Origin: Octopus vulgaris | Taxonomy: Eukaryota | Direction: 5' to 3' | Length of the DNA: 64,000 nt | NCBI GenBank assembly: GCA_951406725.2 | Contig: OX597842.1 | Coordinates: 21,886,001-21,950,000 of the forward strand | Shown: piece after piece, positions 1 through 9,000 of the stretch | Layout of the letters: every line of letters starts with the position of its first letter | Numbering within the stretch: the stretch's first letter is position 1 | Program-made: the position numbers

Positions 1-3000
1 ATAATAATAATATTTTATCTATTCTAAATAATCTTGACATTGTTCTTGACTTTACATAAAATATTCTTTACATTCTACTGTTGTTTTATTGTCATTTATT
101 TACAAGTATTATAAATTTTATTGGTAAAACATTTTTCTAGGAATGAATTACAATTTATAACATTGCTTCTATGGGAAATTATTGCTTTGCTTTATGAGTT
201 TTCACTTAAGGAGCAATCTCCAGGAAGAAATTAACTCATATATCAAGGCATTATTGAGTTTGACATTATTTTGGCACAAGGCCAGCAATTTCAGGGGAAG
301 GAGTAAGTTGAATAACCACATGGATCAGCATGTGTGCTTTTTACATGAACTGGCACAAATGCTTCTTACAGGGAGTGGCATTGCATGATATATCTATATA
401 TATAAAGCTGAAGTTGTCTGTGTGTGTGGCAGGTTTTGCAGCCTTCAACTAACACTATCTCTACCGAGACATTGTAGCGCAAGTTGACCAAAATTGAGAG
501 TATGATAAAAGAAGGCTTGCTCTTCCTTCTGTAGAAGAAAAAATTGAAATCGCACCATGTCAACAACAAAAATTATTTAGATCAGAACGGTGCTTTTTTT
601 CTATGAAAATCCCTATTTTTTACGATTCTTTGACTGCTGTGTCACCGTTTTTTGGTGTATTTCAACCAGAAACCTGTTCACTTTTAGAGAATAACAAGCT
701 ACATAATGCAAGATTTTTACTTTTCAAAAATTCCAATTCTAAAGGGTCAAAAAGAAAACAAATGCGAGCAACACTTAGCGATTCTTGTAGGATATATATA
801 TATATATAGGGTCTTCACAAGTGTCACAAGCAGGAAGGTATGCACAGGTGGACTGACTACGTCCCAGAAAACAACTTCCGTCACCTTCCAGGGGGAAAAA
901 TTAGAAGTAGTTAATAGCTTCCGTTATCTAGGTGACCAAGTCAGTAGTGAGAGTGTAACTGCTAGAATAAGAATAGCCTGGGCAAAGTTTAGGGAGCTCT
1001 TACCTCTGCTGGTGACTAAAGGCCTCTCGCTCAGAGTAAAAGGCAGACTGTATGATGCATGTGAACGAACTGCCATGCTACATGGCAGTGAAACATGGGC
1101 CGTGACTGCTGAGGACATGCGTAAGCTCATGAGGAATGAAGCCAGTATGCTCCGATGGATGTGTAATGTCAGTGTACTTACTCGACAGAGCGTTAGTTCC
1201 TTGAGAGAAATGTTGTACCTAAGAAGCATCAGTTGTGGTGTGCAAGAGAGACGATTGTGCTGGTATGGTCATGTGGCAAGAATGGATGAAGATAGGTGTG
1301 TGAGAAAGTGCCAATCCCTAGCAGTTGAGGAAACCCGTGGAAGAGGTAGACCCAGGAACACCTGGGACGAGGTGGTGAAGCACGACCTTCGAACGTTAGG
1401 TCTCACCATGGAAATGACTAGAGACCGAGACCTATGGAAGTATGCTGTGCGTGAGAAGACCCGGCAAGACTAGTGAAGCCATAACCCGTGGCCCCTACCT
1501 GGGATGTAGTCAGTCCACCTGTGCATACCTTCCTGCTTGTGACACTTGTGAAGACCTGTTGAGGCAAGTGAAAATCAAATCAAATCAAATCAAACCAAAT
1601 CAAAATAGATGAACATCAATGGAATTTGTATCCTTGAGGCACCAGTGCCGGTGGCACATAAGAAAACACTGAAAACACAACCCGAGCGTGGCCGTCTGCC
1701 AGCCTCATCTGGCACCTGTGTCGGTGGCACATAAAAAACACCATCCGAGCGTGGCCGTCTGCCAGCCTCGTCTGGCACCTGTGTCGGTGGCACATAGAAA
1801 ACACCATCCGAGCGTGGCCGTCTGCCAGCCTCGTCTGGCACCTGTGTCGGTGGCACATAAAAACACCATCCGAGCGTGGCCGTCTGCCAGCCTCGTCTGG
1901 CACCTGTGTCGGTGGCACATAAAATCACCCACTATACTCTCGGAGTGGTTGGCGTTAGGAAGGGCATCCAGCTGTAGAAACACTGCCAGATCTGACTGGC
2001 CTGGTGCAGCCTTCGGGCTCCCCAGACCCCAGTTGAACCGTCCAACCCATGCTAGCATGGAAAGCGGACGTTAAACGATGATGATGATGATGATGATGAT
2101 ATATATATATATATGAAGTTATTATGTTACTTCTCATATATATTTGAAGGCGCATGGCTCAATCGTGAGTTCAATTCCTGTCATCTTCATCACATTGAAC
2201 AATGTTAAAGGTTAAAGGGTCAAAGCGAAATCCAGACACATTTTCTCTACAAAACTACTTTAAAACGTTTTCCAATGGCTGAATGACGAAACGTATTAAT
2301 CTGGTTTCTGCCCTAAATATTCTGGTAAAGTAAGGAGGCATCTTGTACACCAGCAAATACTCAGTGAAGTGCAAGTTAATTCGTAATTAGTCAACGCCGT
2401 TGCCAAACACTGAAGAATCTTGTTTAATAATTTGGCTAATTTAGTGAAATTCAAAAGTTACTCCAATATTGATTCGGTGTAAGGAATGGAAACCTACTTA
2501 TTTCCCCTTTAATTTCTATTTACTTTCTTAAATCTCCCATACTGAAGGATTATGCTTATTAGAGCCATGCTATCCATGCCAACCTTGTACAATTACTAAC
2601 ATTTTCTCACACTAAACCATCCCTCTTACTAAAAATATCCTTCTTGTTGAGGATGGGGTTTAGTCAACTGGTACTTATTTTATCGACCCCGAAACGATGA
2701 AAGGCACAATCGACCATGACGGAATTTGAACTGGGAACTGTGGGATGACGTCAGCGGCTAGGAAGCTGACCGGAAGAGGAAGGGCGCGCATAGGGTAGGG
2801 GCGATTGCGCCTTTTTCGATCGGGGAAGTTGTGAGTGCAGGACGTGTCAGTGCTTCGACCAGTTGAGGGATAGCAGCTGCTATTTTTAGCGTTTCGGGAC
2901 AGGCCACGTGGAAGGGTACATTACCATCGGACAGATATGGGTCAACGAAGAGAAGGTGAGTGTCTTACTTCTAATCTCCCGCATTCATTACGAACGTAGC

Positions 3001-6000: not shown

Positions 6001-9000
6001 CAGAAAAATCAATTTTTTCAGACTCTCTTTTACATTCAACTTCACTCCTACGTAATTCATTTTCCATAATTTTCCTTTCTCTTGTCACAATACACAAAGG
6101 TTTTCCTTCTTCTCATATATTGCTCTTAACAAATGATTTACCAGAGATATCACAATGATATGGCTCCTCTCCTGTATGAACACGCCTGTGCTTGGTTAAG
6201 GAATCATTTCGAGAGAAAAATTTACTACAGATTTCACAGTGATATGGTATCCCTCCAGTATGAAAACGCCTGTGAGTAGCTAATACACTGCATGTAGAGA
6301 ATGATATACCACAGATATCACAGTGGTATGGCTTCTCACCTGTATGGATGCGTATGTGCTTAGTCAAGCTATCACTTTGAGAGAAGGATTTATCACAGAT
6401 ATCACAGTGATATGGTTTTTCTCCTGTATGAACATGCTTGTGCTTGGTTAAGGTATAGTTTTGAGAAAAGAATTTACCACAGATTTCACAGTGATATGGT
6501 ATCCCTCCAGTATGAAAACACCTGTGAGTAGCTAATACACTGCATGTAGAGAATGATATACCACAGATATCACAGTATGGATGCGTATGTGCTTAGTCAA
6601 GCTATCACTTTGAGAGAAGGTTTTATCACAGATATCACAGTGATATGGTTTCTCTCCTGTATGAGTACGTTCGTGAATGACTAACTTAGCTTTACATAAA
6701 ATATTCTTTACATTCTACTGTTGTCTTATTGTCATTTATTTACAAGTATTATAAATTTTATTGGTAAAACATTTTTCTAGGAATGAATTACAATTTATAA
6801 CATTGCTTCTGTGGGAAATTATTGCTTTGCTTTATGAGTTTTCCCTTTAGGAGCAATCTCCAGGAAGAAATTAACTCATATATCAAGGCATTATTGTATC
6901 TGACATTATTTTGGCACAAGGCCAGCAATTTCAGGGGAAGGAATAAGTTGAATAACCACATGGATCAGCATGTGTGCTCTTTACATGAACTGGCACAAAT
7001 GCTTCTTACAGGGAGTGGCATTGCACGATATATCTATATATATAAAGCTGAAGTTGTCTGTGTGTGTGTGGCAGGTTTTGCAGCCTTCAACTAACACAAT
7101 CTCTACCGAGACACTGTGGCGCAAGTTGACCAAAACTGAGAGTATGATAAAAGAAGGCTTGCTGTTCCTTCCGCAGAAGAAAAAATTCAAATCGCACCAT
7201 GTCAACACCAAAAATTATTTAGATCAGAAAGGTGCTTTTTTTTTCTATGAAAATCCCTATTATTTACGATTCGTTGACTGCTGTGTCGCCGTTTTTCGGT
7301 ATTTCAACCAGAAAAATGTTCACTTAAAGAGGATAACAAGCTACATAATGCAAAATTTTTACTTTTCAAAAGTTCCAATTCTAACGGGTCGAAAAGAAAA
7401 CAAACCTGAGCAACGCTGGGTGATTCTTCTACAAGATACAGTTATGGGTCAGGTCTAATTCTGATTCTTTAGAAAATTGATGACGTTTTTCATCCGTGGT
7501 CAAATTAACCAGGATACAATTATGGGTCAGATCTAATTTTGATACGCTAAAAAATTGATGACGTTTTTCTTCCATTGTCAAACTTGTCTTTCTGCTTGGC
7601 TGGTTTCCTAAACACGATACAGTTGGGGGTCTTTTCCTTAGAATCGTTGAAGCTTGGTTTTGATTGGTTTGGAATTATATGACGTCAGTGAACAGTGCAA
7701 GAATACTGACTTAACTGATATAAACCCAACAATCACTAGTTGACTAAAATTACGACAACCAAGAATAACTACTGTTGCTCCCATCGGAACACAAGGTAAA
7801 ATCTATAATGAACTCCTGCACTACACTTGACAAAACAGTAAGGAACGACTGACACCTTATAATATATTTTTCGCTTTTTCAAGAACATGGATTCTATTGA
7901 ATGTATATAGCATGGACTCTATTGAATGTATGTAACAATTATGAACTATTCCATTATACTCTTTATTATAAAAAAATTCTTTTTGATAAGGTTCGTTATT
8001 TCAAGAACCGAAACATGTAAAAATTAAAATTTAACTAATATAGTGGCATTTTCAAACTTCTTTTTTACAAATATATATATATATGTGTATATATATATAT
8101 ATATATATATATATGTATGGCCACAGCTCATTAGCTGAAACTGGAAAAATCAAAATCAAATATATATATATATATATTTGAAGCTATTATGTAACTTCTC
8201 ATATATATTTGAAGGCGCATGGCTCAATCGTGAGTTCAATTCCCGTCATCTTCTTTACATTGAACAATGTTAAAGGTTAAAGGGTCAAAGTGAAATGCAG
8301 CCACATTTTCTCCACAAAACTACTTTAAAACGTTTTCCAATGGCTGAATGACGAAACGTATTAATCTGGTTTCTTCTCTAAATATTCTGGTAAAGTAAGG
8401 ATGCATGTTGTACACCAGCAAATACTCAGTGAAGTGCAAGTTAATTCATAATTAGTCAACGCCGTTGCCAAACACTGAAGAATCTTGTTTAATAATTTGG
8501 TTAATTTAGTGAAATTCAAAAGTTACTCCAATACTGATTCGGTGTAAGGAATGGAAACCTACTTATTTCCCCTTTAATTTCTATTTACTTTCTTAAATCT
8601 CCCATACTGAAGGATTATGCTTATTAGAGCCATGCTATCCATGCCAACCGTGTACAATTACTAACATTTTCTCACACTAAACCATCCCTCTTACTAAAAA
8701 TATCCTTCTTCTAGAGGATGGGGTTTAGTCAACTGGTACTTATTTTATCGACCCGGAAACGATGAAAGGCACAATCGACCATGGTGGAATTTGAACTGAG
8801 AACTGTGGGATGACGTCAGCGGCTAGGAAGATGACCGGAAGAGGAAGGGTGCGTACAGGGTTGGGGCGATTGCGCCCTTTTCGATCGGGGAAGTTGTGAG
8901 TGCATCACGTGTCTGTTCTTCGACCAGATGAGGGACAGCAGCTGCTATTTTTAGCGTTTCGGGACGGGCCACGTGGAAGGGTACATTACCATCGGACAGA

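What the first reader, a model, noticed from the sequence alone, without database searches (positions are those of the whole stretch)
2739..7030. In-place inversion turns a ZNF gene into a predicted antisense-RNA gene
Seen: unit 1 keeps plus-strand promoter motifs, donor (2956), acceptor (5274), the start of the main exon and the distal 3' UTR. Between ~5408 and ~6693 the slot normally holding the sense array holds about 13 fingers in reverse orientation, with short CTGC and CTTT overlaps at the junctions. Inference: a transcript would carry ~1.3 kb complementary to the near-identical finger repeats of every paralog, so it could act as a cluster-wide antisense RNA (duplex, small-RNA source or editing guide). 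Known precedent in molluscs: inversion-derived antiNOS transcripts of Lymnaea.
Basis: partly seen in the sequence, partly recalled or inferred. Interest (0 to 1): 0.8.

Follow-up and report, generated by a model that had tools for sequence, protein, structure and literature searches.

The report
Inverted finger array in a zinc-finger paralog
One copy in a tandem cluster of cephalopod-like zinc-finger genes has its finger-coding block flipped and trimmed, which most likely makes it a dead gene copy whose RNA, if any is made, would be complementary to its neighbours.

Summary
Unit 1 (2237-7431) matches its paralogs in plus orientation up to 5411 and again from 6690. The 1278 bases between (5412-6689) match the paralog finger arrays only in minus orientation: 230 of 230 HSPs. 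The junctions overlap by TGC/CTGC and CTTT.

It is not a simple in-place inversion. About 0.55 kb on the 5' side, including the family's start codon, is missing. At least 0.29 kb on the 3' side is missing too. The pattern is deletion-inversion-deletion, or replacement by template switching.

On the minus strand the piece is a colinear "double-module" array with 12 full and 3 partial fingers. It carries two TGA stops, one 19-bp frameshift deletion and one lost zinc ligand.

The CpG-island promoter block, donor and acceptor are as intact as in the paralogs. A plus-strand transcript, if made, would be complementary to every paralog array (53-92 exact matches of 21 nt or more per full array). No tool here shows transcription, function or read support. 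An AATAAA lies 91 nt into the inverted piece.

Best reading: a rearranged pseudogene with antisense potential, of the same kind as Lymnaea antiNOS. Regulation of the cluster is untested.

The parts
2739..2955 (+). CpG-rich promoter and putative first (5' UTR) exon of unit 1. It is part of a ~251-bp block (2739-2989) that lies inside a SINE-like repeat.
   Evidence: CpG o/e is 1.06 against 0.60 for the window, and there are 18 CpG against 18 and 19 in units 2 and 5. It is among the three strongest CpG-island-like stretches of nine in the window. TGACGTCA, CCGGAAG and CACGTG are identical in 3 of 3 units. The block interrupts a SINE-like repeat.
2956..5274 (+). Putative intron 1, from donor AAG|GTGAGT to acceptor TTTCAG|A.
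   Evidence: Consensus signals are conserved: the donor in 3 of 3 units and the acceptor in 7 of 7 units. No transcript evidence.
4820..4996 (-). Older, diverged minus-oriented ZNF fragment within the intron, shared with units 2, 5 and 6.
   Evidence: 4820-4996 matches the sense arrays in minus orientation at 77-80%. The block 4820-5202 is colinear with 12138-12503, 36405-36786 and 50126-50507. The unit 2 counterpart gives Pfam zf-C2H2 (protein 5).
5275..5411 (+). Retained 137 bp downstream of the acceptor. This is the last plus-oriented sequence before the left junction.
   Evidence: 93-97% identical to six paralog units, and homology stops at 5411.
5408..5411 (.). Left junction microhomology (C)TGC.
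   Evidence: + homology runs to 5411 and - homology starts at 5409 (at 5406 with one mismatch).
5412..6689 (-). Inverted finger array, a 'double module'. Read on the minus strand it holds half of finger 1, about 6 fingers, the [14 protein letters not shown] end, the linker, then about 7 fingers.
   Evidence: 230 of 230 HSPs to paralog arrays are in minus orientation. It is colinear with the unit 3 double module: 5406-6576 against 18062-16889, 81% over 1177 bp. Translations are, Pfam, TRF.
5502..5507 (+). AATAAA hexamer on the plus strand, 91 nt into the inverted piece. It is the only AATAAA or ATTAAA in 5275-7431.
5597..6067 (-). Residual minus-strand ORF of 156 codons from the family's start (MENEL..., ATG at 6067-6065) to a TGA at 5599-5597. 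It has three intact fingers, one further finger with its first His ligand changed to Gln, and part of a fifth.
   Evidence: Three of the five named cephalopod homologues fetched start at ME[NDS]EL.
6113..6115 (-). In-frame TGA where unit 3 has CGA (SNI*EEG against SNIREEG).
6570..6580 (-). Site of a 19-bp deletion (frameshift) relative to the tandem sister copy at 6320-6345.
6690..6693 (.). Right junction microhomology CTTT.
6690..7431 (+). Retained plus-oriented 3' flank of the unit. It corresponds to unit 2 15068-15805, which starts about 290 bp after the end of that unit's array.

Best explanation
Unit 1 is a structurally disabled paralog (pseudogene) in a tandem, recently duplicated cluster of C2H2 zinc-finger genes of a cephalopod-like genome.

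A single complex rearrangement left almost the whole finger array in reverse orientation, from the middle of finger 1 to near the last fingers. It removed about 0.55 kb on the 5' side: the rest of the upstream sequence, the start codon and the first half of finger 1. It also removed about 0.3-0.65 kb on the 3' side. Both junctions carry 3-4 bp of microhomology. The event was therefore a deletion-inversion-deletion by microhomology-mediated end joining or by replication template switching, not homologous recombination between repeats. This mechanism is inferred.

The plus strand no longer encodes a zinc-finger protein. The minus-strand frame has since picked up two TGA stops, a 19-bp frameshift deletion and a lost zinc ligand. 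That fits drift without coding constraint.

The CpG-island promoter block, donor and acceptor are as intact as in the coding paralogs. The locus is therefore probably still able to make a spliced non-coding RNA whose last exon begins with 137 nt of normal sequence and then runs into antisense finger sequence. This too is inferred, not shown.

Such an RNA could pair with paralog mRNAs. I take this as a by-product of the rearrangement unless expression and an effect are shown.
For: Orientation and breakpoints: (230 of 230 array HSPs in minus orientation).

Missing material. The slot holds 1278 bp against 2088 bp in unit 2. The right end of the inverted piece aligns to finger 1 of units 2 and 5 (72 of 75 bases). 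On the unit 2 yardstick, 12980 to about 13530, including the ATG at 13398, has no counterpart. The left end aligns to unit 6 at 53337, and that unit's 3' flank homology starts at 53988.

Double-module colinearity with unit 3.

Decay of the minus frame.

Intact promoter and splice signals.

Not a retrocopy. There is no T-run at 5412 and no target duplication, and the native array is replaced rather than joined by an insertion.

Not a copy of another in-window array. The best local matches are a mosaic at 82.8-98.4% identity, and 19 of 28 windows are closest to unit 6.

Other paralogs in the window also have broken arrays, as expected for birth-and-death evolution. Unit 4 is split over two frames at about 31029-31053, unit 5 is interrupted between 39296 and 39496, and unit 2 stops at 14465 with finger remnants up to about 14775.
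Against: No read-level or second-assembly support for either junction could be obtained.

No transcript data were available, so 'still transcribed' and the exon model are inferred from consensus signals and conservation among very recent duplicates, where everything is conserved.

The promoter's CpG content has not decayed at all. That is also what a selected, active non-coding gene would show.

The data cannot say whether the inverted piece is unit 1's own array or was copied from a paralog outside the window.
Confidence: 0.6

Rival explanations
1. Functional trans-acting natural antisense RNA gene. Unit 1 is transcribed from its retained promoter. The antisense finger exon pairs with mRNAs of many paralogs and lowers or modifies them through duplex formation, ADAR editing or small-RNA production.
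For: The promoter block, donor and acceptor are intact, and CpG content is not decayed: 18 CpG against 18 and 19 in units 2 and 5. Complementarity is extensive: 53-92 exact matches of 21 nt or more per full paralog array, and 1114 of 1278 bases covered. The predicted duplex of 5430-5720 with unit 6 RNA is -475 kcal/mol, against -94 +/- 6 for shuffles. A precedent of the same construction exists in a mollusc (PMC3537157, passages read).
Against: There is no evidence of transcription. AATAAA at 5502 may truncate the RNA. Local identity to paralogs (mostly 91-97%) is no higher than that of the neutral flanks (90-97%), so there is no sign that complementarity is being maintained. The architecture is seen in one unit only. 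The complementarity follows automatically from any inversion within a repeat family.
Confidence: 0.08
2. Assembly artefact. The inverted block is a mis-oriented or misplaced contig piece within a highly repetitive ZNF cluster.
For: The region is a dense array of 84-bp repeats in a multi-copy cluster, a classic place for assembly errors. No reads could be examined.
Against: Both junctions lie at 3-4 bp microhomologies, not within long shared repeats. One junction (5411) is in non-finger sequence. A pure orientation error would not also delete about 0.55 kb and at least 0.29 kb. The block has its own private lesions and an internal 3-finger duplication, and it is not identical to any other array in the window. 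The window has no N.
Confidence: 0.12
3. The inverted piece was not unit 1's own array. It was copied in reverse from another paralog by replication template switching (FoSTeS/MMBIR) or inserted during break repair, and it replaced the native array.
For: Microhomology is present at both junctions. The array is a mosaic whose pieces are closest to unit 6 in 19 of 28 windows, whereas the 5' part of unit 1 (2237-4225) is closest to units 2 and 5.
Against: The piece spans just what the slot should hold, from finger 1 to near the last fingers, in exact reverse order. That is what an in-situ event gives without further assumptions. Arrays of otherwise near-identical units (2 and 5) also differ strongly, so mosaicism is the norm here. 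From 4222 onward the unit 1 intron is itself no closer to units 2 and 5 than to unit 6.
Confidence: 0.2
4. The minus strand is the expressed strand. A truncated 156-codon zinc-finger protein (start at 6067, stop at 5597) would be made from a transcript starting downstream, for example divergent transcription from the CpG island of unit 2 at 8701-9250.
For: The family's start codon and an open frame with three intact fingers, plus one that has lost a zinc ligand, survive. CpG-island promoters are often bidirectional (general knowledge, recalled).
Against: There is no CpG-island-like stretch between 6690 and 8300 (CpG o/e 0.66, GC 0.33). The nearest island is about 2 kb away. The frame ends at a TGA that is private to this copy. 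The first finger has lost a zinc ligand (VIQERTH). The upstream minus-strand fingers are frameshifted and stopped.
Confidence: 0.04

Closest known systems
Lymnaea stagnalis antiNOS / antiNOS-2 (NOS pseudogene transcripts)
   Same: A duplicated copy of a coding gene suffered an internal DNA inversion, so the promoter-strand transcript carries a stretch antisense to the parental mRNA. The host is also a mollusc (PMC3537157, passages read).
   Different: For antiNOS the RNA, the duplex with NOS mRNA and a neuronal phenotype were shown experimentally. Here nothing beyond the DNA is known. The potential targets are a whole paralog family rather than one gene. The inverted stretch is about 1.3 kb of 84-bp repeats and is flanked by deletions.
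Complex 'deletion-inversion-deletion' structural variants with microhomology (MMEJ, or FoSTeS/MMBIR template switching)
   Same: An inverted segment with loss of sequence on both sides and 3-4 bp overlaps at both junctions.
   Different: The class is known to me from human structural-variant surveys. This is recalled; no paper was read here. The mechanism is inferred from junction anatomy only.
Pseudogene-derived antisense RNAs and endo-siRNAs (mouse oocytes, rice, human)
   Same: Transcribed pseudogenes with antisense or inverted segments can pair with parental mRNAs and feed small-RNA pathways. Only search listings and abstracts of PMC2708354 and PMC3616710 were seen.
   Different: No small-RNA data here. 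Unit 1 itself has no intramolecular inverted repeat (0 pairs of 40 nt or more), so any duplex would have to form in trans.
Lineage-specific C2H2 ZNF expansions of coleoid cephalopods
   Same: A tandem cluster of recently duplicated multi-finger genes with TGEKP linkers. The closest named proteins with the widest coverage are from Argonauta and Octopus. Passages read in PMC12513265 describe octopus-specific expansions of 104-495 genes.
   Different: In that paper the words pseudogene, antisense, inversion, inverted, exon and orientation occur 0 times. Unit 1 is not a coding member any more.

Membership tests
C2H2 zinc-finger gene (coding member of the cluster) | Tandem C2H2 fingers recognisable by profile | tested here: met
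   Pfam zf-C2H2 and zf-H2C2_2 score E 1e-23 to 1e-32 on the two minus-strand ORFs. There are 11 regex-complete fingers.
C2H2 zinc-finger gene (coding member of the cluster) | Finger array and start codon on the same strand as, and downstream of, the unit's promoter and splice sites, in one open frame | tested here: not met
   The array is on the minus strand. The plus frames across 5275-6800 carry 22-38 stops each. The minus frame has 2 stops and 1 frameshift.
Inversion-derived antisense pseudogene (antiNOS type) | Derived from a duplicated copy of a coding gene | tested here: met
   The flanks are 90-97% identical to at least five paralog units in the window.
Inversion-derived antisense pseudogene (antiNOS type) | Internal segment inverted relative to a retained promoter and exon framework | tested here: met
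   The 'promoter' and 'exons' are inferred from consensus motifs.
Inversion-derived antisense pseudogene (antiNOS type) | Stable transcript that contains the antisense stretch | not testable with these tools
   No eukaryotic transcript or read collection was on hand. AATAAA at 5502 is a caveat.
Inversion-derived antisense pseudogene (antiNOS type) | RNA duplex with, and regulation of, the parental mRNA | not testable with these tools
   Only the potential was computed: exact-match counts and duplex energy.
Simple two-break in-place inversion | Both junctions reciprocal and no sequence lost: each end of the inverted piece is the reverse complement of what adjoined the other breakpoint | tested here: not met
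   The sequence after 12979 and before 15068 of unit 2 has no counterpart at either end of 5412-6689. The slot holds 1278 bp against 2088 bp.
Inversion by recombination between inverted repeats (NAHR) | Breakpoints inside long inverted homologous repeats | tested here: not met
   The junction overlaps are 3-4 bp, and the left breakpoint lies in non-finger sequence.
Reverse-oriented processed retrocopy | Poly(A) remnant at the 3' end of the copy and a target-site duplication; an insertion rather than a replacement | tested here: not met
   No T-run at 5412 onward, no duplication at the junctions, and the native array is absent.
Hairpin-RNA / endo-siRNA locus | Long inverted repeat within one transcription unit | tested here: not met
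   Unit 1 has 0 inverted pairs of 40 nt or more. Unit 2 has 11 pairs, up to 236 nt at 77%.

The most novel reading that the evidence does not exclude
Unit 1 is an active long non-coding gene whose ~1.3-kb antisense finger exon pairs in trans with the mRNAs of many ZNF paralogs. In an animal with heavy A-to-I editing it would then work as a family-wide duplex-forming guide for ADAR or small-RNA pathways. It would be a one-to-many version of Lymnaea antiNOS that tunes a lineage-specific transcription-factor expansion. A related possibility concerns the ordinary units. They carry an intronic antisense finger fragment that can fold back on their own array, so cis hairpins may be the family norm, and unit 1 would be the copy that switched from cis to trans pairing.
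Probability: 0.07. Interest if true: 0.7.

Novelty: new member of a known kind. Interest (0 to 1): 0.3.

Why it matters
If the locus is only a rearranged pseudogene, it is an ordinary product of birth-and-death evolution in a fast-expanding ZNF cluster. It is then useful mainly as a clean example of a microhomology-mediated deletion-inversion-deletion, and as a warning for gene annotation. It also places a 1.3-kb inverted repeat about 6.7 kb from the array of unit 2, which could favour further inversions (inference). If it is transcribed and acts on its paralogs, it would be a second molluscan case of an inversion-made antisense regulator, and the first aimed at a whole gene family. That is directly testable with stranded RNA-seq, because both junction 30-mers are unique in the window.

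Tried and rejected
Rfam scan of the whole window: 0 matches at gathering scores. ARAGORN: 0 tRNA or tmRNA genes.

Protein search with the first 120 residues of the unit 2 frame. It gave 200 hits among 284 candidates, and no hit was above 68% identity to the query (the best named cephalopod hits with the widest query coverage were 45-52%). The source species' own annotation is therefore not in that collection, and no gene model for this locus could be taken from it. 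Hits from unnamed sources were not fetched.

Retrocopy origin: rejected, because there is no poly(A) trace or target duplication and the native array is replaced.

NAHR between the intronic inverted fragment and the array: rejected, because the breakpoints do not lie in those repeats.

Deciding 'own array' against 'copied from a paralog' by nearest-neighbour identity was inconclusive. All linkers and flanks are about 92-97% alike and the arrays are mosaics.

Poly(A) signals. Beyond the array of units 2, 5 and 6, neither AATAAA nor ATTAAA occurs before the unit end, so the normal 3' end of these genes could not be placed.

Literature. The search 'octopus + zinc finger + antisense + pseudogene' gave 1 paper, which is unrelated. 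PMC12513265 holds none of the words pseudogene, antisense, inversion, inverted, exon or orientation. Its supplements, which were closed, might list gene models or expression for such loci.

Not done. No second copy, ortholog or read set of this locus could therefore be examined.

Full report
**Setting.** The window is a tandem cluster of C2H2 zinc-finger (ZNF) units, all on the plus strand, with LINE fragments and simple repeats between them.
- Taking unit 2 (8300-15824) as reference, the colinear blocks define these units: unit 0 (only its tail, to 808), unit 1 (2237-7431), unit 2, unit 3 (15895-20262, without the 5' part), unit 4 (25730-32501), unit 5 (32585-40906), unit 6 (46594-54696) and unit 7 (59244 to the window end).
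- The named proteins that cover most of the non-finger N-terminus are from Argonauta and Octopus, at 45-52% identity. The source is therefore probably an octopod-like cephalopod. Neither the species nor any annotation of this locus was found.
- Three of the five named homologues fetched begin at ME[NDS]EL. This corresponds to MENELRR in the large exon of the units (ATG at 13398 in unit 2). The coding sequence of the family therefore starts inside the large exon, and whatever lies upstream is leader.

**The observation.** It is correct in nearly every detail.
- Flanks: unit 1 follows its paralogs in plus orientation up to 5411 and again from 6690.
- Inverted piece: the 1278 bases between gave 317 BLASTN HSPs in the window. 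All 230 of 230 HSPs to the sense arrays of units 2-7 are in minus orientation. The 87 plus-orientation HSPs are to the piece itself (41) or to older minus-oriented finger fragments in introns (46).
- Left junction: plus homology ends at 5411 and minus homology begins at 5409, so the overlap is TGC, or CTGC at most.
- Right junction: minus homology to finger 1 of the paralogs (72 of 75 bases to units 2 and 5) ends at 6693 and plus homology begins at 6690, so the overlap is CTTT.
- Content: the minus strand holds 11 regex-complete fingers, one of them with an internal stop. It also holds one full-length finger with a His-to-Gln change and three partial fingers. These form 84-bp arrays with strong Pfam zf-C2H2 scores.
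- Retained signals: the promoter motifs (TGACGTCA, CCGGAAG, CACGTG) and the donor at 2955|2956 are shared by the three units that have this block. Unit 1 has the better donor, GTGAGT against GTACGT. The acceptor at 5274|5275 is invariant in 7 of 7 units.

- The event is not a clean in-place inversion. The slot holds 1278 bp against 2088 bp in unit 2 (12980-15067).
- The end next to 6690 starts in the middle of finger 1. On the unit 2 yardstick about 0.55 kb, including the start codon and the first half of finger 1, is gone.
- The end next to 5411 aligns to unit 6 at 53337, whereas that unit's 3' flank homology begins at 53988. On the unit 2 yardstick at least the 292 bp between the array end (about 14775) and 15068 are gone.
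- The pattern is therefore deletion-inversion-deletion with 3-4 bp microhomology. I attribute it to microhomology-mediated joining or replication template switching. This is an inference, and the variant class is recalled rather than read here.
- Read on the minus strand, the piece runs as follows: half of finger 1, about six fingers, the odd array end [14 protein letters not shown], a second copy of the non-finger linker with the MENEL start, then about seven more fingers. This double module is also the structure of unit 3 (ORF 16567-18039), with which the piece is colinear over 1177 bp at 81%.
- The piece has private lesions. There is a TGA at 6115-6113 where unit 3 has CGA, and a TGA at 5599-5597. 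A 19-bp deletion lies near 6576. The first finger of the second module has lost a zinc ligand.
- 'Near-identical' is too strong. Long alignments are 70-84% identical. The best 126-bp matches are 82.8-98.4%, with 25 of 28 windows at 91% or more. They form a mosaic that is closest to unit 6 in 19 of 28 windows.

**Can it be transcribed, and what would the RNA be?**
- The 5' block of unit 1 is one of the three strongest of nine CpG-island-like stretches in the window. It has lost no CpG relative to units 2 and 5: 18 against 18 and 19, with o/e 1.06 against 0.60 for the window. Nothing in the DNA argues that the promoter is dead.
- If the acceptor at 5274 is used, the exon would have 137 nt of ordinary sequence and then antisense finger sequence.
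- That stretch shares 53-92 exact matches of 21 nt or more with each full paralog array, and 1114 of its 1278 bases are covered.
- A 291-nt sample pairs with unit 6 RNA at -475 kcal/mol, against -94 +/- 6 for shuffles.
- Caveats: an AATAAA lies at 5502, the only such hexamer between 5275 and 7431. The plus strand of the piece has four GTRAG donor-like sites and no acceptor-like site.
- It is also not established that 5275-5411 belongs to the large exon. In unit 2, about 420 bp of AT-rich sequence separate it from the open frame.

**Context that lowers the surprise.**
- Full units 2, 5 and 6 also carry an older, diverged ZNF fragment in minus orientation in the intron. In unit 2 it forms 11 inverted-repeat pairs with the unit's own array, up to 236 nt at 77%.
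- Unit 1 has no such pair at all, because its array now has the same orientation as the intronic fragment.
- Antisense finger sequence in plus-strand primary transcripts is therefore the norm here. What is special in unit 1 is its length and its likely exonic position.
- Several other arrays in the window are also broken (units 2, 4 and 5). Gene decay is common in this cluster.
- Local identity of the inverted piece to paralogs is no higher than that of the neutral flanks, so there is no sign that complementarity is being maintained.

**Comparison with the known.**
- Unit 1 meets the DNA-level features of that kind: a duplicated copy and an internal inverted segment behind a retained promoter. 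The two defining functional features, a transcript and a duplex with an effect, could not be tested.
- It fails the tests for a coding ZNF gene, a simple two-break inversion, repeat-mediated inversion, a retrocopy and a hairpin-RNA locus.
- I found no report of such a locus in cephalopod ZNF clusters. The search gave 1 unrelated paper, and the word search of PMC12513265 gave 0 hits. Supplements were closed.

**Verdict.**
- A real, neatly resolved rearrangement has turned one ZNF paralog into a non-coding, antisense-capable pseudogene (confidence 0.6).
- A selected cluster-wide antisense function is possible but unsupported (about 0.08).
- Misassembly cannot be excluded without reads (about 0.12). 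It is made less likely by the microhomology junctions, the accompanying deletions and the private lesions.
- Interest is moderate to low, unless stranded RNA data show the transcript.

Noticed in passing
window 2739-2989 (also 8804-9054 and 33089-33339); intact repeat copies on the minus strand at about 26290-26460, 47170-47350 and 59820-60000: The ~251-bp CpG-rich promoter/exon-1/donor block of units 1, 2 and 5 sits inside a SINE-like repeat. In intact copies the two repeat halves are about 95 bp apart. In these units they are 351 bp apart, with GAAC on both sides of the insert. The 22-mer at the start of the block occurs only 3 times, so units 3, 4, 6 and 7 lack this promoter. The origin of the block is unknown.
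   Followed up: partly
window 12078-12313 against 13443-14757 (unit 2); counterparts at about 36316-36580 and 50037-50301; 4820-4996 in unit 1: An older minus-oriented ZNF fragment (linker plus about 2 fingers; minus-strand ORF 11939-12334) lies in the intron of the full units. In unit 2 it forms 11 inverted-repeat pairs with the unit's own sense array (up to 236 nt at 77%), so the pre-mRNA could fold back.
   Followed up: partly
window 15895-20262 (unit 3): Unit 3 starts only 56 bp upstream of the acceptor, directly after the 3' flank of unit 2. It has no promoter block or first intron. Its 490-codon frame (16567-18039) is a double module: array, [18 protein letters not shown] junction, second linker, second array. 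A repeat insertion separates 18496 from 19622.
   Followed up: partly
window 14465-14775; 31029-31053; 39296-39496: Arrays of units 2, 4 and 5 are interrupted by an early stop with out-of-frame finger remnants, by a frame change, and by a gap between two frames. Partial decay is common in the cluster.
   Followed up: no
window 5412-6689 and 13440-14775: After the rearrangement, the arrays of units 1 and 2 form an inverted repeat of about 1.3 kb (70-81% identity in long HSPs) roughly 6.7 kb apart, with the unit 2 promoter between them. This could favour further inversions or read-through hairpins (inference).
   Followed up: no
window 22249-24060 (-), 55864-57788 (-), 21239-21664 (-), 688-1473 (+): LINE-type retrotransposon fragments lie between units. 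The 603-codon frame matches Pfam RVT_1 and Exo_endo_phos_2, the latter just below its curated cut-off. The other frames share its C-terminal sequence.
   Followed up: partly
window about 40800-42930 and 45110-45535: Long TA-rich simple-sequence tracts with GC 0.27-0.29 give spurious Y/I-rich open frames on both strands.
   Followed up: no
window 4222-5411 against 2237-4225: Unit 1 has a mosaic history. In 2237-4225 the private substitutions of units 1, 2 and 5 are balanced (38, 27, 29). In 4222-5411 unit 1 has 53 against 9 and 8. Units 2 and 5 were therefore homogenised there, or unit 1 has another ancestry.
   Followed up: partly
window 7435-7582: A 78-bp tandem repeat of 1.9 copies lies just after the 3' flank of unit 1.
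   Followed up: no
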